Of a stretch of DNA of 64,000 bases, positions 9,056-59,368 are shown in pieces. Below the pieces are notes generated by a model that was not told where the DNA came from, made no database searches, and saw only the letters and a program-made list of their open reading frames with translations. Numbering within the stretch: the first letter of the stretch is position 1; each line of letters begins with the position of its first letter. The DNA comes from an uncultured Nitrososphaerota archaeon (GTDB lineage: Archaea; Thermoproteota; Nitrososphaeria; Nitrososphaerales; CADDZS01): contig CAWCYI010000006.1 of NCBI GenBank assembly GCA_963799845.1, positions 704,001 through 768,000 on the forward strand. Reading direction: 5' to 3'. The translations under genes and the position numbers were made by a program.

Positions 9056-9430
9056 TTAGTTTTTGAACTGGACCTTGGAACCAGTCTTGGCCTTGGCCAT
9101 CTGAAAGGCCTCGTCTGCCTGATCTAGATCAAATCGGTGACTCACAATGGCTTCTGCCCTAATGAGATTATTGCTAAGAAGATTTATGGCTTCCCCGTAA
9201 TGCTTCCACGCGGAGCCATAGGAACCACTCAGCGAAATCTGCCTCCTTACCAAGTCTGAAGCAGGAATCAAAATATTTTCTGGAAATATTCCAATGATCA
9301 CGATCTGATCTCCCTTCGGAGCGGAATAGCTGATTTCAACGCCGCAGGCGCTCCCGCTGCAACAACCAGCGTATCGAATCCATAGCCGTCAGTCATCGAA
9401 TTCATCTTTTCTAGGATGTCAATTTTCTCA
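9056..9430 (-). pseudogene. C-terminal fragment of a Zn-dependent alcohol dehydrogenase (paralog of 27000-28037)
   Basis: EKIDILEKMNSMTDGYGFD...AFQMAKAKTGSKVQFKN aligns with the C-terminus of 27000-28037. ~4-nt deletion frameshift near 9315. No N-terminal domain. Confidence 0.85.
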
Positions 9431-9958: not shown

Positions 9959-11179
9959 TTGAATATAGTAAACAAGAAAAGACAGTATGCGAATTTCGGA
10001 ATTGTCTGGACGAGCCAGGCTACCGCCGCAGTTCTGATATTCACAATCCCTGCTCTCGCCCCGCTTCTCGTTTCGAAATTCGGATTGACCGCAGTCCAGA
10101 TTGGCGAACTTACTGGAATAATGTACGTAGGAATCTGCGGAGTTTCAGTTTTCATCAGTGTTTTGTCGGATTCGCTTGGCGTTAGAAAAGTTCTGTTCAT
10201 CGGACACAGCGTTGAAGCGGTATCGATAATCGGGGCCTCGTTCGCGCACAACTTTGCAGGACTGGCGACCTGTATATTCGGCGTTGGCGTCGGGTACAGC
10301 TCCATTACCCCAGTGACGAGCAAGGCGATCATGGGCTGGTTCTCGAAAGAGCAGAGAAGCTCGGTTATGGGTCTGAAGCAGACCGGTACAACTGTTGGAG
10401 GGTCAATTGCTGGAGCTGTGCTGCCCTATGTAGGAATAAAATACGGAGTGTCAGCAGCTTTTGTTGCAGCCGGAATCCTCGTATTGATTGGAGTGGTGTT
10501 CCTCATGGGATACAGCGAATCGACCCCTCACGCGAACTCATCAATAACTACAGGAGCTTTTCTTAAGCAGGGACTCTCGATTTCATTCAGGAATAAGAAC
10601 CTCCTTTGGGTCGGCGGTATTGGATTTTTTTATGCAACAGTCCAGTCGATTGTAGTCACTTTCATCACCTTATTCGCCAAAAATGTTCTCGGATTTGATG
10701 CAATAATTGCTGGACTTTTTCTGTCGCTGGTGAATATTTCTGGCACAATCGGAAGACCCGTGTATGGGGCAATCAGCGATCGGCTTCTCGGAGGAAGCAG
10801 GATCAAGGATCTCCTCGTGATTTCGATTACGTCTACTATAATGCTACTTCTTCTCTCATCAATACGTCCTGGCATCAGCCTCCTCCAGGTTCTACCCATA
10901 GTCGCATTACTCGGATTTGGGGCATTGGGATGGAATGGAGTCTTTCTCACTCTTGCCGGGGAATATTCGAATCTGGGCTACGAGGCCGTGGGTACTTCAG
11001 TTGCTTTTTCGATCGCGATGACCGGACAAATAGTGGGCGCACCAATTTTCGGAATTATTGTCGAGCAAACGGGAAGTTACGACATTGGCTGGCAAGTTTT
11101 TGCGATCTCACTGATTACCGCTTCAATAGTATTCTCAATTGCGAGGAGAAAACACGAGCCAAGTGCCGCCGTCAAATGA
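9959..11179 (+). CDS. MFS transporter
   Basis: 406 aa, about 12 TMS, motif A-like LSDSLGVRK and GAISDRLLGG. Confidence 0.9.
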   Translation: MNIVNKKRQYANFGIVWTSQATAAVLIFTIPALAPLLVSKFGLTAVQIGELTGIMYVGICGVSVFISVLSDSLGVRKVLFIGHSVEAVSIIGASFAHNFAGLATCIFGVGVGYSSITPVTSKAIMGWFSKEQRSSVMGLKQTGTTVGGSIAGAVLPYVGIKYGVSAAFVAAGILVLIGVVFLMGYSESTPHANSSITTGAFLKQGLSISFRNKNLLWVGGIGFFYATVQSIVVTFITLFAKNVLGFDAIIAGLFLSLVNISGTIGRPVYGAISDRLLGGSRIKDLLVISITSTIMLLLLSSIRPGISLLQVLPIVALLGFGALGWNGVFLTLAGEYSNLGYEAVGTSVAFSIAMTGQIVGAPIFGIIVEQTGSYDIGWQVFAISLITASIVFSIARRKHEPSAAVK

Positions 11180-11318
11180 TCTTCTCTAGATCTCCAACGC
11201 CTAACTGAAAAGTCATTGAACCTAAAGATTCGAAAGGTGCTCAATCACAACAGCTCCCTTTCAAAAAAAGGCAAGCTTACTAGAATTTATTCTTGACCAT
11301 TCTTTATATCCAAGTTTT

Positions 11319-11447
11319 CATTGATTCTTATATAGAATTTTTTCTGCGTTCGCACACGGGGCGTGTTTTCTGAGTGAAGAGCTACGTTCAAGCTCTGTAA
11401 GCTCAGAAGAGCTTGAAACGAGCTGAACGGAGCTTACACAGCTCGAA
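11319..11447 (+). repeat. dispersed intergenic repeat copy A (phased AGCT array)
   Basis: AGCT at 11380, 11391, 11400, 11410, 11421, 11431, 11440. 68-bp core is 64/68 identical to the reverse complement of 29436-29503. Shared CATTGATTCTTA upstream. Confidence 0.92.
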
Positions 11448-11477
11448 TCTCATTGATTCCACCCTAGTTGACAGCGG

Positions 11478-12803
11478 ATGAACTCTCCGACTGATCCTTT
11501 CGAGAGTGATTTATTAGCCGTAGATTTTGAGAATTCTTTACCAGCGACACAATTCAGTGATCTAGAATTGCAATCGACCGACAATATTATTCCAAAGATT
11601 TCAAAAGACATTGAAAGCGAAAAATCCAGAATCCAGGACTTCTTCGTAAAGATGCTGAAGATCAACTCGGTAAATCCGAGGATGGGCGGTCCCGGCGAGG
11701 TGGAACGCGCCAATTTTATTCAGTCCTTCTTGGAATCTGAGGGGTTTGTCGTGGGAAGGGTGGATGTTCCCGAAGACGGACGATTTCGCCCAAACATCAG
11801 CGCCAAGATTGAGGGCGAAGACGAGTCAAAAAGGCTCTGGTTTCTGTCGCATATGGACACGGTTCCGGAAGGAAGCAGGGACATGTGGAATACCGATCCG
11901 TTCGACCCCGTAGTCAAAGACGGGAAGGTGTATGCCAGAGGAGCGGAAGACAACGGACAGTCGCTGGTATCAAGTTTGTTTGCATTGATGGAGTTGAAGC
12001 GCCTCGGAGAAAAGCTTCCTTTCAACGTTGGCTTCTGGGCCGTTGCTGATGAGGAGTTCGGCAGCGAATACGGAGTCAAATACCTGCTGGATCACGATTA
12101 TTTCAGGCCGAGCGACCTGATTGTCGTTCCCGACGCAGGCTCCCCTGACGGTATGACGATTGAAATCGCGGAGAAGAATTTGCTCTGGTTCAGGATCGAG
12201 ACCAGGGGAAAACAGGTTCATGCGAGTCTGCCGAACAAGGGGAAGAATGCGCATCGCATCGGCATGGAACTGGCACTCAACTTAGACAAGGTGTTTCACG
12301 AAAAGTACACCAGTACTAACAACATGTACGATGATCCGTCGTCAACTTTTGAGCCGACGAAAGTAGAACCAAACGTACCCAACATCAACACGGTTCCCGG
12401 GGTTGACGTATTTTATTTTGATTGTAGGGTATTGCCTGAATACTCTCTCGACAGCGTTATTTCCGACATCAACAGGGCGGTTTCAGAATCCAATGAAATA
12501 CACGGCTCGGAAAGTAATCTAGAAATCATTAACAGGGAGGACGCCGGCCCGGCAACATCTGAATCAAGCGACGTTGTACGGATAATGGAGACGGCGATAT
12601 TCCAAGTTACGAAAAAGCAGCCGAAACTAATCGGGATTGGAGGTCAGACCGTTGGAAATCTATTCAGAAAGAAAGGGCTCCCAACAGTAGTCTGGAGCAC
12701 CGTCGATGATATTCCTCACGAACCAAACGAGTACTCCAAGCTGTCGAATCTGATCTCCGATGCGAAAGTTTTCGCGGCGATGCCGTTTGTCGCAAGAAGC
12801 TGA
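11478..12803 (+). CDS. M20 family metallohydrolase (ArgE/DapE-like)
   Basis: SHMDTVP, ARGAEDNG, ADEEFGS, GKQVHAS, PHEPNE. True start is probably TTG near 11568. Confidence 0.9.
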   Translation: MNSPTDPFESDLLAVDFENSLPATQFSDLELQSTDNIIPKISKDIESEKSRIQDFFVKMLKINSVNPRMGGPGEVERANFIQSFLESEGFVVGRVDVPEDGRFRPNISAKIEGEDESKRLWFLSHMDTVPEGSRDMWNTDPFDPVVKDGKVYARGAEDNGQSLVSSLFALMELKRLGEKLPFNVGFWAVADEEFGSEYGVKYLLDHDYFRPSDLIVVPDAGSPDGMTIEIAEKNLLWFRIETRGKQVHASLPNKGKNAHRIGMELALNLDKVFHEKYTSTNNMYDDPSSTFEPTKVEPNVPNINTVPGVDVFYFDCRVLPEYSLDSVISDINRAVSESNEIHGSESNLEIINREDAGPATSESSDVVRIMETAIFQVTKKQPKLIGIGGQTVGNLFRKKGLPTVVWSTVDDIPHEPNEYSKLSNLISDAKVFAAMPFVARS

Positions 12804-22901: not shown

Positions 22902-23366
22902 TCAAGCAGGATTTGATTGAGCAGGCGCTTCTGCCGGAGCGGCCTCTTGATTCGCATCTGCTGATTCCTTCAATGCGACCTGTTTCGACATCCAGAGCTC
23001 GAACGTATCTGGAGCCGCTGCGGTATCGAGTTTGGGAGACACATTTTCCTTGGGCTTTTGTTTTTCCATCCAGCGATCGAATGTATCTGGAGTTACTTCT
23101 GAATCTAGCTTACGAGAGGTAGTTTCTTTGGGCTTTTGTTTTTCTATCCAGAGCTCGAATGTACCCTTTGGCAGAACGACTTCCGCATGGGCAGATGGCG
23201 TGACTGCGCCTTCTTTTTTGCTCGCTCTCACCTGTTTCGCGATCCAAGCATCAAACGTATCGGCCGGGAGCTTCGATGTAGTTTTTGCCGGAGTCTTGGA
23301 GGCTCGGGTTGCTGTCTTTTTTGCTTTTGACTTTGCTGGTTTCTTCTTTGCACTTTTTGGCTTCAA
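22902..23366 (-). CDS. hypothetical protein: Lys/Ala-rich N-terminus plus four TF(D/E)xW(I/M)xKQ repeats
   Basis: Repeats DTFDAWIAKQ, GTFELWIEKQ, DTFDRWMEKQ, DTFELWMSKQ. Codon-level repeat conservation supports coding. Confidence 0.75.
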   Translation of the reverse strand: MKPKSAKKKPAKSKAKKTATRASKTPAKTTSKLPADTFDAWIAKQVRASKKEGAVTPSAHAEVVLPKGTFELWIEKQKPKETTSRKLDSEVTPDTFDRWMEKQKPKENVSPKLDTAAAPDTFELWMSKQVALKESADANQEAAPAEAPAQSNPA

Positions 23367-24038: not shown

Positions 24039-24105
24039 ACCTTCCTAAACCAACGAATCTGCACTTAAAGATCAAGACCGGAGTTTTCGTGAACTACCCT
24101 TGAAT

Positions 24106-25233
24106 TTATTCGTGGGCTTCTTGCTTCCTTGACTGAAACTTGCTGATCCGTGTGATCAGTAGAGGCTCTGTCTCCACAAGGGACTGCTCCAGTCCCAGCT
24201 TCAGGTGATTGCGAGCTGCGTTCACGTCACGGTCCAGTTCAAGACCACAACGCTCGCAATGAAACACTCTGTCCTTCAGAGTGAGTTTCGTCGGCGAGAG
24301 CTATCCGCATCTAGAGCATTTCTGCGAACTGCCAATGGGATTGACGAGTAAGACTCGCCCGCTACGCCTTTCTGCCTTGTAAGCAGTCATTACGCGTAGC
24401 TTCCCCCAGGTGGCATCCAATATTGCTGATGCGAGATTGTGGTTTCTCACCATGTTCAGAATCTTCAGGTCTTCGAATACAACCAACTTGTTCTTCCGAG
24501 CAAGGTCATTCGAAAACTTATGGCAGAAGTCTTCCCTCTGTCTCCGCACTTTTCTCCACGCCTTGGCGAGAACGATCCGTGCCTTCTCCCTGTTCTGAGA
24601 AGCCTTCTTCTTTCGTGAAAGCTTTCGCTGAAAAGACTTGATTCTCTGCACACTCCCCTTCAAGTAGCGTGGGTTTTCTATAAGGGTCCCATCGCTGAGA
24701 GCTGCTACACTCGAGATCCCAACATCCACGCCAATTTTTCCATCGGAGCATTTCACAGTCGGATTGGATTCGTCGACGAGCAGTGCCACGAACCACTGGT
24801 CGACGTCCCGGATAACGGTCACACGCTTGATGACGCCGGAGATTTTTCGGTGTAGCACAATCTTGATCTTCCCAATTTTGCTCAGGTAGATCGTGCCACC
24901 TTTCAGCTTGAAGCCGGATTGAGGATAGGTGAAGGAGTTGTAGCGACCGTATTTCCTGAACCTCGGATACTTCATCAGCCCTTTGAAGAATGCTTGGAAC
25001 GCCTTGTCCAGTCTCAGGGCTACGTCCTGCAGGACTTGGGAGAATACAACCTTGAGATATTTATTGTCCCGCTTCAAAGGCACGAGCTGTCTTTTCTGTT
25101 GGTAGAATCCAGTCCGATTCTCATTCCGATCCGCAAGAAGATTGTTGTATAGACGCCTGCATGTTTCAAGAGTCTCGTTGAGGCTTCTCTCTCGTTGCGT
25201 GCTTGGATAGATCCTGAACTTGTAGGTGATCAA
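24106..25233 (-). pseudogene. tnpB: TnpB (RNA-guided nuclease) with premature TAG at 24301-24303
   Basis: YKFRIYPS HTH, RuvC-I GVDVG, RuvC-II FEDL, CSRC*. The same frame continues ...CERCGLELDRDVNAARN...KQEAHE* to 24106. Confidence 0.9.
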
Positions 25234-25628
25234 ATCTCTTTCTGCTCTGCAATGTATTGCTTGATCGTGTCGGATGAGACGTGTCCGTGTGTTGAAACAA
25301 AGTAGCTTCGACTCCAAAGAGTAGGAAGCCGGGTTGCAAGTTCTGGGAATTCCTTTCTGAGCTCGTGGGAAGTATAACCCTTGAGAGCCGCGATGATCCG
25401 GTTTGGTGCGATCACCGGAGTAGCCTGGATGAATAGATGCATATGGTCCGGCATTATTTCGAGTGCGATAATCTTGCAGCCGAGAGCATCTGTTTTCTCT
25501 TGAAGTAAAGCTTTGAGTCGAGCTTCAACTTTTCCAACGAGAACCTTTCGCCTGTATTTGGGGCACCAGACGAAGTGATAGTTCATGAAGTGGACTGAAG
25601 TCTGGGAAGGGAGATAGCCCCGTGGCAC
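25230..25628 (-). CDS. tnpA: IS200/IS605 Y1 (HUH) transposase
   Basis: YHFVWCPKYRR, PDHMHL (HUH), LWSRSYF, YIAEQ. Confidence 0.95.
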   Translation of the reverse strand: MPRGYLPSQTSVHFMNYHFVWCPKYRRKVLVGKVEARLKALLQEKTDALGCKIIALEIMPDHMHLFIQATPVIAPNRIIAALKGYTSHELRKEFPELATRLPTLWSRSYFVSTHGHVSSDTIKQYIAEQKEI

Positions 25629-25686
25629 GGGAAAAAATGGATAACATTTACTTAATTAAAATGCTCGCTTTCATCCCACGGCTGAA

Positions 25687-26862
25687 CAGTAGTTGCGAAT
25701 CAAGTATGCTTTCCTTTCATGTCAAATGACTTGTTCATGATTAGACCGATGAGAGAGAGTTTCATTTGTATTACTTCCACCGATTCGTTCGGATGGAGCA
25801 GCTCTTGGTTGGCATTGTACATGACCCACGAATTGTAGACAAGACATGCAAAGAGATAGTAGAACAATCTTACCACGTAGTTCCTTGATGTTGTTTTTAT
25901 CAGGAATTGATTTGACATTCGGTAGCTTGTCTCTATGCCCCAACGGTTCTTGAATAGCCTTAGGATTGTTTCAGCTTTGTAGGGAAGATTTGTTGCAAAC
26001 AGGTACTTGTAATCCTTTGTCTTGTCATATGCCACTACAACTTCAAACGAGGCTTGTTCAGATTCCCTCCTCCTGTGTCCGCTAGTAGTGTACGTGAACC
26101 TCCTACCCTGCCAGAGCCTCATTTTCTTTGTCTTGTAGGTTGGAGCCATTCGCACGATGTACTTGAGTCCAGATTCCTCAAGAAATCTGAGTAGATTTGT
26201 GTGAAAGAATCCGCCGTCAAAAACCAGATAGCGAATTCTTATTTTCAGCTCTTCTTGCAGTTTTCGCACAATTTGTGTGGTAGACGAGACAAGTTCCGAG
26301 CCTGATGCTAATCCTGTAACAGCTACGATCAGTCTTTCTCCATCTGCTAGAACAGAAGCTGTAAGGTACTTGAATGAATAATTGCTTCCGTCCCTGTGCA
26401 TGGTTCCAATGACCATCGGTGTTTCTTCATGATTACCGTAGTACATGACATCATGCAGATCCAAAGCGACAGGGACTGGTACGCGTAATTTTCTTCTTTT
26501 TCTAAGATCCTTCACATTCCCGTCTATCAAATTATCGAAGATTTGTTTGACTCTCGCTTCTCTTTGTGATTTAATGTACGAAAGAAGAGTTTCTGCAGTC
26601 GGTGATTCGCCTAGAGATTTCGAAACACCTTCAGCAAATCCATTTACCAAGCTCGCCGAGATGAGCAGGTTTAGGTGTTCATTCTTGGAATAAATCGCTC
26701 TCTCCTTCAGCTCATATGTCAGCAGTCCTGAGATGTTTTTCTTTACGAATTCATACAGCTTTCTCGAATTGAACCTCAATTGGAACGTCGGAAACAAGCC
26801 CTAAGGCGGGCTGGCCATAATAATTGCGGCCGGAAATCGCCTAGATTCGTTCGCAACTACTG
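25687..26862 (-). mobile_element. ISH3-family (IS4 superfamily) insertion sequence
   Basis: Perfect 13-bp TIRs CAGTAGTTGCGAA (25687-25699) and TTCGCAACTACTG (26850-26862). 4-bp direct repeat TGAA at 25683-25686 and 26863-26866. Confidence 0.9.
25700..26797 (-). CDS. ISH3-type DDE transposase
   Basis: VALDLHDVMYYG, FDGGFF, RWGIETSYR, KTTSRNYVVRLFY. Confidence 0.88.
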   Translation of the reverse strand: MFPTFQLRFNSRKLYEFVKKNISGLLTYELKERAIYSKNEHLNLLISASLVNGFAEGVSKSLGESPTAETLLSYIKSQREARVKQIFDNLIDGNVKDLRKRRKLRVPVPVALDLHDVMYYGNHEETPMVIGTMHRDGSNYSFKYLTASVLADGERLIVAVTGLASGSELVSSTTQIVRKLQEELKIRIRYLVFDGGFFHTNLLRFLEESGLKYIVRMAPTYKTKKMRLWQGRRFTYTTSGHRRRESEQASFEVVVAYDKTKDYKYLFATNLPYKAETILRLFKNRWGIETSYRMSNQFLIKTTSRNYVVRLFYYLFACLVYNSWVMYNANQELLHPNESVEVIQMKLSLIGLIMNKSFDMKGKHT

Positions 26863-26999
26863 TGAAACCCGTGGGGTTTCCCGCTCGACTTAGTGCTAAA
26901 AATGAAGCAGGTCTAGAACGATGTTGAGTCAATTCTCCGTGAAATAGTTTCGTCGTCCCATTACGCTTATACAATTGACAACGCGAAGTTTTCCCGGAA

Positions 27000-28037
27000 T
27001 TGAAAGCGGTAGCCAAGACAAAGAGAGAACCGGGTCTAGAGGTAATCGAGACAGATCCGGACAAGATTGGTGAAAATGATGTTCTCCTCAAAATGCGGGC
27101 TGCCTCAATTTGCGGGAGCGATCTTGGATTTTACAACTATACTGCGGCCTACCAGAAATTTGCGAAAGTTCCGACAATCATGGGCCACGAGTTTGCTGGC
27201 GAGATAGTCGAGGTCGGGAAAAAAGTTAACGATTTCGCCATCGGTGATCGGGTGTCCGTCGAATCTGTTCTTTACTGCGGGAAATGCAAGTTCTGCAGAC
27301 GAGGTACGACAAACATCTGCCGAAATTTCACGGTCTTTGGAATGCATCGCAACGGTGGGTTCGCTGAATTTGTCGCAGTGGATCAAGAGTACCTCCATCG
27401 AATTCCTAGCGAAGTTTCATTTCTGGAAGCGGGAGTGGTCGAACCGCTTTCGGTCGTGGTGAACGCCCTCGAGGATGTCTCGACACAGATCGACGTGGGT
27501 GACACTGCCTGCGTCATAGGTCCCGGCCCGCTCGGACTTTTTTCAGCAGAAATCCTGCGAGCGAAAGGCGTTAGTGATCCATTGATCCTTGGGATTGGAA
27601 TTGATGAGTACAGGCTAGAACTGGCCAAGACAAATCTATCTTACGAGACAATGAATACAGAGAAAATTGATCCCACGGAAAGAATGAATTCAATGACTGA
27701 TGGGTATGGGTTCGATGTTGTGGTTGTAGCGGCCGGAGCTCCGGCGGCACTGAGATCCGCCGTTCCCCTGGTATCAAAGGGAGGACAGATTATTGTCATT
27801 GGAATTTTTCCGGAAGATGTTTTGCTGCCAGTATCGGATCTTGTGCGGAGGCAGATATCCATGAGGGGCTCCTACGGCTCGGCCTGGAAACACTACGAAG
27901 AAGCTATCCATCTTTTGAATAACAAATTGGTTAGAGCGGAAGCCATTGTGAGTCATCGGTTTGATCTGGATCACGCTGATGAAGCCTTCCAGATGGCGAA
28001 AGCGAAAACTGGTTCCAAGGTGCAGTTCAAAAATTAG
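27000..28037 (+). CDS. Zn-dependent medium-chain alcohol/polyol dehydrogenase
   Basis: ICGSD, GHEFAG, structural Zn CGKCKFC...C, GPGPLG. Confidence 0.93.
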   Translation: MKAVAKTKREPGLEVIETDPDKIGENDVLLKMRAASICGSDLGFYNYTAAYQKFAKVPTIMGHEFAGEIVEVGKKVNDFAIGDRVSVESVLYCGKCKFCRRGTTNICRNFTVFGMHRNGGFAEFVAVDQEYLHRIPSEVSFLEAGVVEPLSVVVNALEDVSTQIDVGDTACVIGPGPLGLFSAEILRAKGVSDPLILGIGIDEYRLELAKTNLSYETMNTEKIDPTERMNSMTDGYGFDVVVVAAGAPAALRSAVPLVSKGGQIIVIGIFPEDVLLPVSDLVRRQISMRGSYGSAWKHYEEAIHLLNNKLVRAEAIVSHRFDLDHADEAFQMAKAKTGSKVQFKN

Positions 28038-29231: not shown

Positions 29232-29297
29232 TTGAATTACACTCGGACTCGGAACTTTCGGGCAATATAATGAATTCCTTCTTAGGAATAACTCGAC

Positions 29298-29349
29298 TTT
29301 TCGAGCTCCGTTTCAGCTACTGATAGATGAAACAAGCTAATAGAAAGCA
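29298..29349. repeat. degenerate third phased-AGCT unit
   Basis: AGCT 29304, AGCT 29315, AGAT 29325, AGCT 29335, AGCA 29346 (spacing 11,10,10,11). Shares GAGCTCCGTT(T)CAGCT with copy B. Confidence 0.55.
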
Positions 29350-29418
29350 AATCCATTGAGTAATTCGCGCGGTTGCACAACCCCCCTTAGGGGGCCCCTC
29401 ACTCCATCGTGACTTTGT

Positions 29419-29562
29419 GCGTCCGTTCAATTCGTTTCGAGCTCTCTAAGCTCCGTTCAGCTCGTTTCAAGCTCTTCTGAACTTACAGAGCTTGAACGGA
29501 GCTTAGCCGTCAAAACGATCGCGTGGTTGCGAAACGGCAGAATTTTTTTCTAAGAATCAATG
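29419..29562 (-). repeat. dispersed intergenic repeat copy B (phased AGCT array), inverted relative to copy A
   Basis: Reverse complement of 29436-29503 matches 11380-11447 with 4 mismatches. An extra degenerate unit lies at 29419-29435. Confidence 0.92.
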
Positions 29563-29603
29563 GGAACTCGTAATTAACGTCTCGGGGGCCGACAAGAGAT
29601 TCT

Positions 29604-41493: not shown

Positions 41494-43089
41494 ATGGCGG
41501 GTACAAAATCAGTTTTCGTGCGCGATGCCACGGGGTTGGTTCGAGCTTTTCGTTGGTATGATGCTCTGATTCTAAGTCTTGCAGTTACCGGTCCAACATA
41601 TTTTGGGATCGCCTCGCAGATCGGTTACGTCTCACCTAACGTTCCCGGCGCGGATTTCACGACTTCCGCCGCGATCGGTTTGTTGTTCATGATTCCTTTG
41701 GGGCTAGTCTACTATTTGTTTGCCGTCAGTATGCCTAGGTCCGGAGGAGATTACGTCTGGATAGGCCGATCCATTCATCCGATTTTGGGATTCGTGGGCG
41801 GCTGGGCCATGTTCATTTCATTCATCTTTCTTCTGGCGGGAGTTGGAGGTCCGACCTGGGCTGGAGTTGTAGTTCCAGTTTTTTACGTAACCATGGGATA
41901 TGTCTGGCACAGCCCAGGACTGGTCACTTACGCTACTACGTTCACCAGGAATACAGTCTTTGAGTATGGATTACTCGTGATAATCTTGGGTGCTTTAATT
42001 ACAGCCTTTGGTCCTAAAGTGTACAGCAGAATCATGATCTTCTTAGCGGCGATCATCCTTCTTGGCACTTTCGTTTTCATCGGTGTAGCGGCGACCACCT
42101 CTCCTACGACTTTCGCCAATGCTTTCAACACTTTCACTTCTACGAATGCGCTGAACGCGACATACAGTAGTATCATTAGTAATGCAGGAACCGCTGGCTG
42201 GGCATATCAGCCAATAACCACCGCGCTCACTTTGGCGAGCGTTCCTTTCGGGGTCCTCTTGTTTAACGGATTCAACTATTCAGTGTACGTGTCTGGGGAA
42301 ATGAAAGATGTCCGAAGGAGTATGCTGTGGGGAGTTTTGCTTGCATTACTCATATGCGGAATCTTGGATATCATAGGTCTCTACTTTGGAGTAAAGATGA
42401 TTGGCTACGAGTTCAATCAAGCAGCCTTCTATCTGTTCGGGCATGGATCTTCCGCCTGGCCGTTTCCAGGGATTTCTCCGTGGATCGCGCTATTCACCCC
42501 GATGGTGATCAACAATGCATACCTGTCCACATTCGTGCAACTCGGTTGGTTACTTTTCTTCATATGGTGGGCGGCCGCTCTTATCCTCGCGATTTCGCGT
42601 TACGTCTTTGCATTCTCTTTCGACAGGGTCCTGCCCACGGCTTTTGCGGACGTAAACCAGCGCTTCCACTTCCCGCTCAAAGCGACGGCCTTGACTTTGG
42701 GGATCGGGATACTCTTCCTGATCGACTTCACTTACCTCCAATCCTACCTGGTGGCTACACTCAACACTACTGCAATTTGGGCCGTGGTCTGGGTTGTCGT
42801 AGGCCTGTCGGCGATAGTCTTCGCGGTCAAAAAGAAGGAGATGGCGAAGGCTCTTCCCGGTGGTCCAGTGCTACTGATGGTCTTTGGTCTGCTGTCAATG
42901 CTCGCTATGGGCGCTACTTTCTATTACGCAGCGACAAACTCTGCAATCGGACCGTTCACCACTTCTGCGCAGGGCCTTCTCGGAGTAGTATTTGCGTCGG
43001 GCCTGGTAATCTACATCATCAGTTACTACTACCACAAAGCCCACAACATCAACCTCGACTTGGTATTGAAGGAAATACCTCCAGAGTAA
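41494..43089 (+). CDS. APC-family permease
   Basis: FVRDATGLVR, MPRSGGDYVW, GEMK, SRYVFAFSFDRVLP, C-terminal EIPPE. Confidence 0.9.
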   Translation: MAGTKSVFVRDATGLVRAFRWYDALILSLAVTGPTYFGIASQIGYVSPNVPGADFTTSAAIGLLFMIPLGLVYYLFAVSMPRSGGDYVWIGRSIHPILGFVGGWAMFISFIFLLAGVGGPTWAGVVVPVFYVTMGYVWHSPGLVTYATTFTRNTVFEYGLLVIILGALITAFGPKVYSRIMIFLAAIILLGTFVFIGVAATTSPTTFANAFNTFTSTNALNATYSSIISNAGTAGWAYQPITTALTLASVPFGVLLFNGFNYSVYVSGEMKDVRRSMLWGVLLALLICGILDIIGLYFGVKMIGYEFNQAAFYLFGHGSSAWPFPGISPWIALFTPMVINNAYLSTFVQLGWLLFFIWWAAALILAISRYVFAFSFDRVLPTAFADVNQRFHFPLKATALTLGIGILFLIDFTYLQSYLVATLNTTAIWAVVWVVVGLSAIVFAVKKKEMAKALPGGPVLLMVFGLLSMLAMGATFYYAATNSAIGPFTTSAQGLLGVVFASGLVIYIISYYYHKAHNINLDLVLKEIPPE

Positions 43090-57447: not shown

Positions 57448-57734
57448 ATGCTTGGAAAGCAAGTAATCTTTGTAGACCCGTGGGGTACCACACAATTCTG
57501 CCACAGCTGCCTCCAATGGGTTCCAAAGAATTTAGGAGAAAGGGAACATGACTGCCCCAAATGCGGGATCAAACTATCAAGAGACCTCAATTCTGCAAAA
57601 TTGATTAGAAGGCTTGGCATCCAGAAAAGAAGCCCGCCCTCGGACGGGGAGTCGTCATCCGCTGAGCTTTTGCCTCTACCATCTCTGAGGAGAATGGCAA
57701 GCATTGGTGAGGAAGCGGGAGGCCTACGAATGAA
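57448..57734 (+). pseudogene. tnpB: TnpB C-terminal remnant (Zn finger plus RuvC-III) of an IS200/IS605 element
   Basis: VDPWGTTQFCHSC...HDCPKCG..LSRDLNSA. The right-end hairpin is split by IS1182 and completed at 59369-59390 (...GGAGGACGTCAC). Confidence 0.85.
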
Positions 57735-59368
57735 GAGACTGTGTGAGAACTATTTAAAGGCAAATACTTTGGCCGACAGGCCTATCTACGAGTACGCCCT
57801 AATGCATGAACGTGAGTAATAGCGGTCACGTGGAGGGTAGTGAGCGAAGGCAGAGGATACTCCTTCCAGACATGTTGGACGAATACGTAGACGAAGACAA
57901 TCCAGTCAGGTTCATTGATGCATTTGTAGACAAGCTCAGCCTGAAGAAGCTCGGATTCAAGCATTCCGTCCCAAGCGAGACTGGAAGACCGTCGTACGAC
58001 CCCGCAGATCTTCTCAAGCTATACATCTATGGATACCTGAACCAGATTCGTTCCAGCAGAAAGCTCGAGCGAGAGTGCAGGAGAAATCTTGAACTCGTCT
58101 GGCTCATGAAGAAACTCACTCCGGACTTCAAGACCATATCCGATTTTCGGAAGAACAACGTAGACTCGATCAAGCCAGTCTTCAAGGAATTCGTCTTTCT
58201 TTGCAAGAGCCTTGATCTCTTCGGGCTTGAGCTCGTCGGCATCGACGGGAGTAAGTTCAAAGCTGTCAACTCCAAAGACAAGAGCTACTTTAACGAAAGA
58301 AAACTCGAGAACAGCTTGAAACTCACGAACGAAAAGATAGAACGCTACCTGAAGGAGCTCGAGGAGAATGACAAAAATGACGTTGATGATGATAACGACA
58401 AAGAGCAGGAGACTAGGGAGCTCAAAGAGAAGATTGACAAGCTTGAGGAGAAGCGGAACGAATACATTCGAATACAGAATGAGATGAAGGAGAGCGGAAA
58501 GAAAGAGATGACGCTCAACGACCCGGAGAGCAGACTGATGAAGGCTGGCAGGGGGCTCGACGTGTGCTACAACGTAGAATCTGCCGTCGATTCAAAGTAC
58601 CACATGGTTTGTGAGTATTATATCACGAATCATCCTAGTGACAAGAACGAACTTGCAAATGTTGCAATAGGAGCTATGAAGACACTGGGCGTCGGAAAGC
58701 TTGATGCAACCGCAGATAGCGGATTCTTCGACGCGGAGCATATCAGAGAATGCATCCAAAATGGGATAACTCCGTACGTCACCGAGCAGAAGTCCATCGG
58801 GAGTGCGAAGAGGAGAGGCATACCAACGCCGGAATTTTACAAGAGCGAGTTCTTCTACGACAAAGAAGCAGATGCGTACACTTGTCCCGCGGGAGAGAAT
58901 CTTTGGTCCATGTACGTAATGGACAAGGGGAAGGGTAAGCGAATGAGGGTCTACGGGACAACGGCGTGCTCCAACTGCCCATTCTTCCTTACAAAATGTA
59001 CAGCCGACAGAACTGGCAGGAAGATATACAGAGGACTTCACGAAGAGCTAATCGAAGAGATGAGGCAAAGAATCAAGGACGACCCTTCCAAAACAAAATT
59101 TAGGAAGGAGCTCTGCGAGCATCCGTTTGGTACGATGAAGAGGGCGTTCAACCAGGGCTACCTTCTTCTCAAAGGATTAAGGAAGGTTGGCGGTGAAGTC
59201 GGATTCACCATGCTTGCATATAACATGAGGAGAGCAATCAATGTACTCGGAACAAAGGCATTGATAGGATCGCTCGGACTGTAGTCGAGATCCACTAGCC
59301 CTCTTTATGAAGTAACATCGAATAGATCTCATCGTGGGAGCGGATCAAATGAGTTTTAACACAGTCTC
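57735..59368 (+). mobile_element. IS1182-family insertion sequence
   Basis: TIRs GAGACTGTGTGAGAACT (57735-57751) and AGTTTTAACACAGTCTC (59352-59368), 15/17 match. Flanks are inverted repeats. Confidence 0.9.
57806..59284 (+). CDS. IS1182-family DDE transposase
   Basis: NPVRFIDAFVD, GRPSYDP..LLKLYIYGY...SSRKLE, IDGSK, ADSGF, EHPFGTMK. Confidence 0.93.
   Translation: MNVSNSGHVEGSERRQRILLPDMLDEYVDEDNPVRFIDAFVDKLSLKKLGFKHSVPSETGRPSYDPADLLKLYIYGYLNQIRSSRKLERECRRNLELVWLMKKLTPDFKTISDFRKNNVDSIKPVFKEFVFLCKSLDLFGLELVGIDGSKFKAVNSKDKSYFNERKLENSLKLTNEKIERYLKELEENDKNDVDDDNDKEQETRELKEKIDKLEEKRNEYIRIQNEMKESGKKEMTLNDPESRLMKAGRGLDVCYNVESAVDSKYHMVCEYYITNHPSDKNELANVAIGAMKTLGVGKLDATADSGFFDAEHIRECIQNGITPYVTEQKSIGSAKRRGIPTPEFYKSEFFYDKEADAYTCPAGENLWSMYVMDKGKGKRMRVYGTTACSNCPFFLTKCTADRTGRKIYRGLHEELIEEMRQRIKDDPSKTKFRKELCEHPFGTMKRAFNQGYLLLKGLRKVGGEVGFTMLAYNMRRAINVLGTKALIGSLGL

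What the first reader, a model, noticed from the sequence alone, without database searches (positions are those of the whole stretch)
11319..11447. Dispersed intergenic element built from helically phased AGCT sites (copy A)
Seen: seven AGCT palindromes in 64 bp at spacings 11,9,10,11,10,9, so about one per helical turn. The 68-bp core recurs inverted at 29436-29503 (64/68 identical). About 60 bp of looser upstream similarity (CATTGATTCTTA, A/T tract, CTGC.GTT.CGCA) is shared, although the neighbouring genes are unrelated. The core has nested dyads (TTCAAGCTCT/AGAGCTTGAA; AGCT.CGTTCA/TGAACGGAGCT). It has no ORF, transposase or CRISPR spacers. Inference: since AGCT looks methylated in this genome, this may be a methylation-sensing protein-binding array, analogous to phased GATC clusters read by SeqA or to centromere/iteron arrays. 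Alternatives are a structured ncRNA or a MITE. I know of no described archaeal element like it.
Basis: partly seen in the sequence, partly recalled or inferred. Interest (0 to 1): 0.8.

Follow-up and report, generated by a model that had tools for sequence, protein, structure and literature searches.

The report
Hairpin-array intergenic repeat family in Nitrososphaerales
The phased AGCT sites belong to two copies of a non-coding, hairpin-rich repeat scattered through the spaces between genes of a soil archaeon, much like the REP, BIME or BOX repeats of bacteria, and the regular spacing comes from the way its small hairpins are built.

Summary
Copy A has seven AGCT sites at steps of 11, 9, 10, 11, 10 and 9 nt, and an inverted copy B lies 18 kb away. 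These are not a pair: they belong to a family at 100 loci in this 4.6-Mb genome. A covariance model finds 38 matches in one congener and 8 and 2 weak matches in two others. It finds none in the other 9 genomes of the family searched.

The element is non-coding, intergenic and lies in either orientation relative to its neighbours. It is modular: an A/T-rich 5' module with TATA-like boxes, a TTCTGC...T-run module, then a variable chain of short hairpins. Their stems are (G)AGCT/AGCT(C) and their loops are 4-7 nt. That geometry produces the roughly 10-nt AGCT step. Segments between AGCT sites occur in both orientations.

No Rfam match, covariation, terminal inverted repeats, clean target duplication, partner transposase or CRISPR array was found. 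Many sites are shared with the congener, but the modules at a site differ, and some copies are truncated or absent.

My best reading is a REP/BIME- or BOX-like hairpin-array repeat. The methylation-reader idea is untested and not favoured. Interest is moderate.

The parts
11276..11457 (+). Copy A, the whole family unit in its short form
   Evidence: nhmmer profile hit C6:715276-715457, model positions 3-184, score 164.9. Flanks 11150-11300 and 11440-11560 have no other match in the genome.
11302..11345 (+). 5' module of copy A: TATA-like CTTTATAT, the conserved AGTTTTCATTGATTC, a second TATA-like TTATATAG, and an A/T run
   Evidence: These columns are conserved across 70 aligned copies from two genomes. 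The promoter role is inferred, not shown.
11341..11379 (+). U module of copy A: TTCTGCG, a variable G+C-rich segment (CACACGGGGCGTG), a T-run, then GAAG
   Evidence: Alignments. This module plus the first hairpin is the part still recognisable in G004 and G005.
11380..11443 (+).
   Evidence: As DNA it folds into a long imperfect hairpin, -22.9 kcal/mol, z = -5.27.
11444..11459 (+). 3' end of copy A. TCATTGATTC (11450-11459) repeats the 5' module's TCATTGATTC (11318-11327).
   Evidence: Direct repeat D4, 10 nt, 100% identical, 132 nt apart. Other copies end in ..CATTGAACGG.
29290..29584 (-). Copy B, a longer composite form: 5' module, U module, hairpin array, then further family modules (the GGGGCCCCC palindrome, a second GCAACCGCGCG unit, more AGCT hairpins)
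   Evidence: nhmmer hit C6:733426-733584, minus strand, model 24-184, score 132.8. Region 29230-29440 matches other family loci.
29427..29503 (-). AGCT hairpin array of copy B
   Evidence: Inverted-repeat pair I2 with 11380-11456, 77 nt, 91%. It has 6 AGCT sites; one site reads AGTT.

Best explanation
Copies A and B are two members of a lineage-restricted, non-coding, modular intergenic repeat family. It has about 100 loci in this genome. The genome belongs to the order Nitrososphaerales, judging by the record titles of a congener's contigs.

Each unit has three parts:
- an A/T-rich 5' module carrying TATA-like boxes and the conserved AGTTCCCATTGATTC;
- a 'TTCTGC - G+C-rich segment - T-run' module;
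- a variable chain of short hairpins whose stems are (G)AGCT/AGCT(C).

AGCT is its own reverse complement. With stems of 4-6 bp and loops of 4-7 nt, AGCT therefore recurs every 9-11 nt. The 'helical phasing' is a by-product of this tandem-hairpin architecture (shown).

The element works like bacterial REP/BIME or BOX elements (inferred). It is a hairpin array that sits between genes in either orientation. It is reshuffled by recombination or gene conversion between copies, and by hairpin-mediated template switching that flips the segments between AGCT sites. It decays by deletion.

If it has a cellular effect, the most likely one is through hairpins plus T-runs read in either direction. That would make it a bidirectional terminator, or a 3'-end protecting structure, for the flanking transcripts (inferred, not shown).
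For: Family size: nhmmer iterations gave 52, 141 and 169 hits, which merge into 100 loci. Of these, 47 score at least 85 bits.

Location and orientation: of 43 full copies, the downstream gene is opposite in 27 and co-oriented in 16. The 80 host spacers are 40 tandem, 21 convergent and 19 divergent, close to the genome's spacer-length shares.

No coding capacity or known class: no Rfam match and no CRISPR array.

Hairpins: DNA fold z = -5.27; RNA fold z = -3.31 on the plus strand and -3.40 on the minus strand.

AGCT clustering: AGCT-N7-AGCT occurs 92 times in family loci out of 194 in the genome, N6 67 of 154, and N5 58 of 186. Family loci make up 0.36% of the genome.

Flips: the unit occurs both ways round in element orientation, as AGCT[TC]GAAAC[GA]AGCT 20 times and AGCT[TC]GTTTC[GA]AGCT 24 times in 59 loci. 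A 15-nt block is also found flipped.

Modularity: short and roughly 500-nt forms exist. Solo 5' modules occur in 12 of the 49 motif matches.

Comparison with the congener: of 28 loci, 15 have an element at the collinear site of this genome, 9 have none, 3 are ambiguous and 1 has no usable flank. The orthologue is the nearest copy in only 2 of 11 pairs, and ranks 19th or worse in 5.

Loss and decay: partial copies here correspond to full copies in relatives. The orthologous MFS-M20 spacer of G004 lacks the element.

T-runs: of 52 gene 3' ends that face a full copy, the first run of five or more T lies inside the element in 23. Genome-wide, only 19% of genes have such a run within 100 nt of the stop.
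Against: No mechanism of spread is shown. I found no terminal inverted repeats, no clean target duplication and no partner transposase.

Many sites are shared with a congener whose coding DNA is only about 82-86% identical, so most copies are old rather than recently mobile.

In 3 of 6 collinear pairs the element is better conserved (0.87-0.88) than the coding DNA (0.69-0.84) and other spacer DNA (0.37-0.76). That could mean purifying selection for a function I have not identified.

The 5' module with TATA-like boxes is conserved too well for a mere hairpin repeat.

AGCT steps stay near multiples of 10 (9-12, 19-21, 30) even in variant modules. A pure hairpin account does not require this, although these modules are copies by descent and not independent cases.

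The terminator role rests only on the positions of T-runs. No RNA data exist.
Confidence: 0.55

Rival explanations
1. A family of small non-coding RNA genes. Each copy carries its own archaeal promoter (the TATA-like box about 20-30 nt upstream of ATTGATTC or the A-run) and is transcribed into a hairpin-rich RNA of roughly 50-150 nt.
For: A TATA-like box (YTTWAWAW) at a fixed distance from the conserved AGTTCCCATTGATTC is kept in nearly all full copies of two genomes. It is recognisable in the divergent G004 and G005 copies.

Orientation is independent of the neighbouring genes. The 6 family-like solo 5' modules, plus one further match I picked by eye, are not followed by a nearby co-oriented ORF; the nearest is 186 nt away.

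The element is better conserved than other spacer DNA in 3 of 6 collinear pairs. RNA fold z = -3.3.
Against: No Rfam match even at E = 10, apart from chance microRNA hits far below their thresholds.

There is no covariation. In 30 distinct copies, 657 cells gave 0 changes on both sides, 34 one-sided and 22 broken. On alignment A1, 0 of 16 pairs changed on both sides, and 305 of 500 shuffles reached the observed score.

T4-T5 runs lie 15-45 nt after the putative start and should terminate archaeal transcription early. That rule is my own recollection, not a tool result.

The opposite strand folds equally well. Many copies are truncated. The genome's own promoter consensus could not be derived.
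Confidence: 0.18
2. One reading: a protein-binding DNA array that reads m4C-methylated or hemimethylated AGCT sites placed on one face of the helix, like SeqA on GATC clusters or like centromere or iteron arrays.
For: AGCT density is 26.6 per kb in family loci against 4.5 per kb genome-wide (439 AGCT in 16,486 bp).

AGCT steps cluster at 9-12, 19-21 and 30 nt, with few in between.

AGCT m4C methylation is reported for Thaumarchaeota, at 82-91% modification in two MAGs (PMC8919816, passages). AGCT m4C methyltransferases are listed for three thaumarchaeal strains (PMC11033074, passages). The genome has 12 matches to PF01555.
Against: Hairpin geometry explains the step without any protein.

The different spacings come from a few module sequences copied by descent, so they are not independent cases.

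Array length varies from 0 to 9 AGCT per locus, and only 2-3 are kept in the G004 and G005 homologues.

AGCT columns are no more conserved than several neighbouring stem columns.

No candidate reader protein was identified, and no protein family recurs beside the loci.

Methylation of this genome was not measured, and the specificity of its methyltransferases is unknown.
Confidence: 0.08
3. A classical MITE: a deletion derivative of an insertion sequence, moved in trans by that element's transposase, with terminal inverted repeats and target-site duplications.
For: The element is small, non-coding, multi-copy and intergenic. Some sites differ between the two species by presence or absence (9 of 28 congener loci have no counterpart here; L039 and L050). 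The genome carries transposases of the IS605, TnpB and IS110 kinds.
Against: The unit is asymmetric. The 5' module has no inverted counterpart at the 3' end.

No clean target duplication could be read at three filled-versus-empty comparisons, because the surrounding spacer DNA is too diverged.

The ends of the only Y1-transposase element (2 copies) do not match the family profile at E = 10, and they carry a different hairpin.

No protein family recurs next to more than 5 of the loci. There are no matches in viral contigs. Most sites are shared between the two species, so there has been little recent movement.
Confidence: 0.1

Closest known systems
REP / BIME elements of enterobacteria and pseudomonads
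   Same: Both are short imperfect palindromes, present in many copies and confined to spacers between genes. Units occur in both orientations and combine into mosaic clusters of variable make-up. REP/BIME have proposed roles as terminators and 3'-end stabilisers of mRNA. REPs are known targets of IS110-family insertion sequences. The REP properties given here are my own recollection.
   Different: There is no sequence similarity. No REP-associated Y1 transposase (RAYT) flanked by the units was found: the 2 Y1 genes sit in IS605 copies with unrelated ends. The unit here is longer and has a conserved, asymmetric A/T-rich 5' module. The host is an archaeon.
BOX elements of Streptococcus pneumoniae
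   Same: Both are modular, with conserved end modules and a variable number of internal hairpin modules. Both have on the order of a hundred intergenic copies, no transposase of their own and stable stem-loops. The BOX properties are recalled.
   Different: BOX elements are bacterial and have no sequence similarity to this family. BOX modules are not built on one 4-nt palindrome, and flipping of segments is not a noted feature of them.
Prokaryotic MITEs, including the archaeal ones covered in the review PMC10969869 (seen as a search listing and abstract only)
   Same: Both are small, non-coding, multi-copy elements that are mostly intergenic.
   Different: No terminal inverted repeats, no demonstrable target duplication and no parent insertion sequence were found.
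SeqA-bound GATC clusters, iterons and centromere-like arrays
   Same: These share only the idea of a short palindrome repeated about once per helical turn.
   Different: Those arrays sit at one or a few loci and have a known reader protein. Here there are 100 loci, variable array length, a hairpin architecture and no reader.

Membership tests
MITE | Terminal inverted repeats at the two ends of the unit | tested here: not met
   The 5' module (TATA-like box, AGTTCCCATTGATTC, A-run) has no inverted partner at the 3' end (..GAGCTCGAAACGCATTGAA) in the 70-copy alignment. In copy A the ends share a direct repeat, TCATTGATTC, not an inverted one.
MITE | Target-site duplication flanking each insertion | tested here: inconclusive
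   Three filled-versus-empty comparisons were made: G004 against copy A, and L039 and L050 against G000. The surrounding spacer DNA is too diverged to place the junctions.
MITE | A related autonomous element with a transposase in the same or related genomes | tested here: not met
   No protein family recurs beside the loci; the largest cluster has 5 of 321 neighbouring ORFs. The family profile finds nothing in or around the two IS605 copies. There were 0 matches in viral contigs.
REP/BIME with RAYT | A Y1 (HUH) transposase gene flanked by the repeat units | tested here: not met
   PF01797 gives 2 matches. Both lie in 2.8-kb IS605-type copies that also carry TnpB. Their ends bear a GAAACCCGTGGGGTTTC hairpin, not AGCT hairpins.
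REP/BIME with RAYT | Short imperfect palindromes, intergenic, in many copies, with units in both orientations forming mosaics | tested here: met
CRISPR array | Identical repeats separated by unique spacers of constant length | tested here: not met
   No run of 4 or more copies of any 18-mer at 50-100-nt steps anywhere in the genome. Within the element, the stretches between AGCT sites are themselves conserved family sequence.
Known RNA family (Rfam 15) | A match to a curated covariance model | tested here: not met
   0 matches at gathering score in the window. At E up to 10 over 11200-11520 there are only chance microRNA and lncRNA hits, at 13-21 bits against thresholds of 85-100.
Structured non-coding RNA (generic) | Base pairs kept through compensatory changes | tested here: not met
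   0 both-sided changes in 657 cells on the plus strand and 1 in 420 on the minus strand. 0 of 16 pairs on alignment A1, no better than shuffles. Variation is low, so this is a lack of support rather than disproof.
Methylation-read DNA array (SeqA-like) | The motif is methylated in this organism and a protein binds according to methylation state | not testable with these tools
   Only indirect evidence exists: the literature on AGCT m4C in Thaumarchaeota, and 12 PF01555 matches of unknown specificity.
Methylation-read DNA array (SeqA-like) | The array, in number and spacing of sites, is conserved among homologues | tested here: inconclusive
   The full chain of 7 sites is kept in 8 of 47 full copies here and 7 of 23 in the congener; the other copies have shorter chains. 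The G004 and G005 homologues keep only 2-3 AGCT.

The most novel reading that the evidence does not exclude
The AGCT hairpin arrays may be epigenetic landmarks. Thaumarchaeota carry a conserved orphan AGCT m4C methylation. This lineage has concentrated AGCT about 6-fold at roughly 100 intergenic sites, and keeps the sites in a register of about 10 bp (steps of 9-12, 19-21 and 30 nt) even where modules have been swapped. A so far unknown protein could read the methylated or hemimethylated face, or the extruded cruciform, to organise the nucleoid, time replication or insulate transcription units. The promoter-like 5' module would then couple this to local transcription.
Probability: 0.07. Interest if true: 0.85.

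Novelty: new variant of a known kind. Interest (0 to 1): 0.42.

Why it matters
Small dispersed hairpin repeats are well studied in bacteria. I found no description of one in Nitrososphaerales: two searches returned nothing relevant, which does not prove that none is in print.

This family fills about 16 kb of spacer DNA and breaks short-read assemblies of the lineage. It marks roughly 80 spacers that are 3-4 times longer than the genome median. Anyone assembling or annotating these soil archaea needs to know about it.

The family also offers a natural experiment. The same sites in two species hold different module combinations and flipped segments. That makes hairpin-driven template switching and gene conversion in an archaeal genome directly observable.

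If the T-runs plus hairpins do terminate transcription in both directions, the family would be a portable archaeal terminator. If AGCT methylation matters here, it would give the conserved thaumarchaeal AGCT methylase a readable target.

Tried and rejected
Cis-regulatory 5' leader or riboswitch: rejected, because the downstream gene is opposite in 27 of 43 full copies.

Segmental duplication of copies A and B together with the nearby 260-nt repeat (9057-9316 and 27777-28036): rejected, because the order of the two repeats is not collinear.

CRISPR remnant: rejected, because the genome has no arrays.

Derivation from the IS605 copy that lies between the two copies in the window: rejected.

Link to the rRNA promoter: a long-form copy lies about 1.1 kb upstream of the 16S gene on contig C1 and is conserved there in a metagenome relative. 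An ORF and a separate A/T-rich region lie in between, so I treat the link as coincidence.

Expression: no RNA holder was listed for the locus, so expression could not be tested.

Earlier notes of this scan: nothing was on record for this genome or this sequence.

The genome's own promoter consensus: aragorn found only 9 tRNAs, and my crude ORF starts blurred any positional TATA signal, so the promoter-likeness of the 5' module stays unscored.

AGCT-specific conservation: the raw contrast (21 mismatches in 956 cells at AGCT columns against 243 in 1742 elsewhere) mostly dissolves on inspection, because the variation is concentrated in a few loop and flip columns.

Recurrent hairpin in the G+C-rich segment of the U module: different variants can each form a small hairpin before the T-run, but by eye the pattern was inconsistent, so I make no claim.

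Supplements of the cited papers were not seen.

Full report
THE OBSERVATION

Copy A reads ...GAAGAGCTACGTTCAAGCTCTGTAAGCTCAGAAGAGCTTGAAACGAGCTGAACGGAGCTTACACAGCTCGAATC... AGCT starts at 11380, 11391, 11400, 11410, 11421, 11431 and 11440. A triple AGCT with gaps of 5-7 nt occurs 7 times in the window, all in the two copies. Shuffles predict 0.03.

The inverted copy (11380-11456 against 29427-29503, 77 nt, 91%) and the weaker upstream similarity (37 nt, 73%) are confirmed. So are the nested dyads.

The flanking genes are unrelated. Copy A lies between an MFS transporter and an M20 peptidase. Copy B lies between an M24 peptidase and a luciferase-like monooxygenase.

HOW BIG THE THING IS

With the whole assembly laid (4.6 Mb, 9 contigs; the window is C6:704001-768000), blastn already found dozens of matches. 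Iterated nhmmer gave 52, 141 and then 169 hits. These merge into 100 loci, of which 47 score at least 85 bits.

In copy A the family sequence spans about 11276-11457, and its flanks are unique. Copy B continues to about 29290 with further family modules.

In three soil DNA runs the summed contig depth over the element is about 200 against about 7 on the flanks. Short-read contigs end in the element, and contigs cross both junctions of copy A. The repeat is therefore real.

ANATOMY

Alignments show modules.

(i) A 5' module: a TATA-like box (CTTTAAATA, CTTCATATA, CTTTTAATA and similar), 2-3 variable bases, the strongly conserved AGTTCCCATTGATTC, then CATTAAG or a second TATA-like CTTATATAG, then an A-run.

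(ii) A 'U' module: TTTTCTGCG, a G+C-rich segment that exists in about four sequence variants, a run of 4-5 T, then GAAG.

(iii) A chain of hairpins, including AGAGCT-ACGTTCA-AGCTCT, AGCTC-AGAA-GAGCT, AGCT-TGAAACG-AGCT and GAGCT-TAGAG-AGCTC. A second subfamily replaces one 23-nt block by AGCTCTGTTCAATTCGGACAGCT, which has the same length.

(iv) An end, ..CGAAACGCATTGAACGG.

(v) In about a dozen copies the element runs on to about 500 nt, with a spacer and two further U-like units, one carrying a GGGGCCCCC palindrome.

Twelve of the 49 matches to the 5'-module motif lie outside family hits. About six of these are clearly solo 5' modules.

AGCT is self-complementary. With stems of 4-6 bp and loops of 4-7 nt, the 9-11-nt step follows from the construction. 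As single-stranded DNA the core folds into one long imperfect hairpin (z = -5.27). As RNA both strands fold about equally well (z = -3.31 and -3.40).

Family loci cover 16,486 bp, 0.36% of the genome. They hold 439 of 20,817 AGCT sites. They also hold 92 of 194 AGCT-N7-AGCT, 67 of 154 AGCT-N6-AGCT and 58 of 186 AGCT-N5-AGCT.

Genome-wide, AGCT is not avoided. Its observed/expected ratio is 1.10, the highest of the 16 palindromic tetramers.

FLIPS

The segment between two AGCT sites is found in both orientations. In element orientation, 59 loci hold AGCT[TC]GAAAC[GA]AGCT 20 times and its reverse complement 24 times. A 15-nt block (CTGTAAGCTCAGAAG against CTTCTGAGCTTACAG) is flipped in some copies.

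Such inversions of loops bounded by short inverted repeats are the expected product of hairpin-mediated template switching. That attribution is inference from general knowledge. They point to a DNA-level process and leave the stems intact automatically.

WHERE THE COPIES SIT

All loci are in spacers. Six of 43 full copies overlap one of my crude ORF calls. Orientation is unrelated to the neighbours: the downstream gene is opposite in 27 and co-oriented in 16, and the upstream gene is co-oriented in 23 and opposite in 19.

The 80 host spacers are 40 tandem, 21 convergent and 19 divergent. This is close to the genome's spacer-length shares of 52%, 21% and 27%. Ten loci could not be classed. Host spacers have a median of 488 nt against 140 nt genome-wide.

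The element is therefore not a leader or riboswitch.

WHAT IT IS NOT

There is no Rfam match and no CRISPR array in the genome. No protein family recurs beside the loci; the largest cluster is 5 of 321 neighbouring ORFs. There are no matches in viral contigs.

The genome has 2 Y1 transposase genes and 15 matches to the TnpB zinc-ribbon family. One IS605-type copy lies in the window at about 24085-26901, between copies A and B. The family profile finds nothing in it, and its ends carry a different hairpin.

The unit has no terminal inverted repeats.

There is no covariation: 0 both-sided changes in 657 cells, and 0 of 16 pairs on alignment A1, no better than shuffles.

DISTRIBUTION

Record titles of a congener's contigs place the lineage in Nitrososphaerales.

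By blastn, 6 of 41 genomes matched. One is G000 itself, one congener matched strongly (25 matches), and the other four gave only matches of 21-31 nt.

A covariance model built on 20 copies found 80 matches in G000, 38 in G003, 8 weak ones in G004 and 2 in G005. It found none in three other congeners, which are 58-85% complete, and none in six genomes of two other genera of the family.

The G004 and G005 copies keep the ATTGATT/TATA-like part, the U module and the first hairpin, but not the long AGCT array.

Thirty-three metagenome contigs carry the 20-nt pattern, and all 33 have a profile hit. Twenty-eight have flanks that match G000 at 70-91% identity, so they come from the same clade.

HISTORY

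Of 28 congener loci, 15 have an element at the collinear site of G000. Nine have none, 3 are ambiguous and 1 has no usable flank.

Orthologous copies are 0.71-0.95 identical. The orthologue is the closest G000 copy in only 2 of 11 pairs, and it ranks 19th or worse in 5. So sites are old but their contents are exchanged.

In six collinear alignments the element is 0.87-0.88 identical in three, above coding DNA (0.69-0.84) and other spacer DNA (0.37-0.76). It is 0.58-0.73 identical in the other three.

G000 has truncated copies where relatives have full ones. It has 'empty' spacers where the congener has a copy, though the junctions are too diverged to read ends or duplications. The MFS-M20 spacer of G004 is only tens of bases long and lacks the element.

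POSSIBLE EFFECT

Runs of five or more T are scarce in this genome; only 19% of genes have one within 100 nt of the stop. The element carries T-runs on both strands. Of 52 gene 3' ends that face a full copy, the first such run lies inside the element in 23, before it in 16 and after it in 4. In 9 there is none within 600 nt.

Together with hairpins that fold on either strand, this fits a bidirectional terminator or 3'-end protector. It is inference only, because no RNA run holds the locus.

THE METHYLATION IDEA

Papers report AGCT modification at 82-91% in two thaumarchaeal MAGs (PMC8919816, passages). They also list AGCT m4C methyltransferases for three thaumarchaeal strains (PMC11033074, passages). 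G000 has 12 matches to the N6/N4 methyltransferase family, of unknown specificity. The sites may well be methylated.

Nothing shows that the methylation is read. AGCT columns are no better conserved than neighbouring stem columns. Array length ranges from 0 to 9 AGCT per locus, and the full 7-site chain is present in 8 of 47 full copies here and 7 of 23 in the congener.

The clustering of steps at 9-12, 19-21 and 30 nt is intriguing. It stems from a few module sequences copied by descent.

VERDICT

The element is a lineage-restricted, modular hairpin-array repeat, the archaeal counterpart in kind of REP/BIME or BOX elements. The AGCT phasing is explained by its construction.

How it spread and whether it serves the cell remain open. 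The small-RNA-gene reading, and more remotely the methylation-reader reading, are not excluded.

Noticed in passing
G000 C6:336646-339016 (locus L056:247-2617): One family copy is split between its 5' module and its U module by a 2.37-kb insertion. The insertion is bounded by 59-nt imperfect inverted repeats (73% complementary) and flanked by AAAAAATC on both sides (the flanking repeat read by eye). It carries an IS110-family transposase (PF01548, PF02371). The inner 1,512 bp recur at 99.6% identity at C4:1287262-1288773, so this looks like a nested insertion.
   Followed up: partly
G000 C4:886266-886867 (L057) and C4:152252-152469: Two more family copies appear, by eye, to carry insertions or remnants at the same A-run/T-run junction. 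One is about 600 nt. The other is a remnant of about 45 nt resembling the inverted repeat of the insertion above. The junction may be an insertion hot spot.
   Followed up: partly
window 24085-26901: An IS605-type element on the minus strand carries a Y1 transposase (window 25242-25595) and a TnpB whose zinc-ribbon match has an in-frame TAG. A second copy, 93% identical over 2.8 kb, lies on contig C4.
   Followed up: partly
window 9057-9316 and 27777-28036: A 260-nt inverted repeat, 77% complementary. One arm is the 3' part of a 345-aa ORF that, by eye, resembles a zinc-type alcohol dehydrogenase (27000-28037). The other lies partly in a 193-aa ORF whose C-terminus resembles it, probably a gene fragment. 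No family search was run on these ORFs.
   Followed up: no
window 42800-42834 and 57750-57784; TnpB-like match at window 57451-57606: A 35-nt inverted pair, 77% complementary. One arm lies about 150 nt from a short TnpB zinc-ribbon match. It may be the end of another transposon.
   Followed up: no
window 22981-23136; 55712-55750/56437-56475; 56045-56116/56759-56830: A 78-nt tandem duplication at 73% identity, and two pairs of direct repeats spaced 714-725 nt apart that suggest a local duplication of about 720 nt.
   Followed up: no
G000 C1:57-823 and C1:1950-2438: The 16S rRNA gene is cut by the contig end. A long-form family copy lies about 1.1 kb upstream on the same strand, with a 152-aa ORF in between. 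The arrangement is conserved at 90% identity in metagenome contigs L067 and L071.
   Followed up: partly
G000 contigs C2, C5, C8, C9: These four small contigs (36-87 kb) have no family copy at all, and C2 has a lower G+C content (0.442). They may be extrachromosomal or mis-binned.
   Followed up: no
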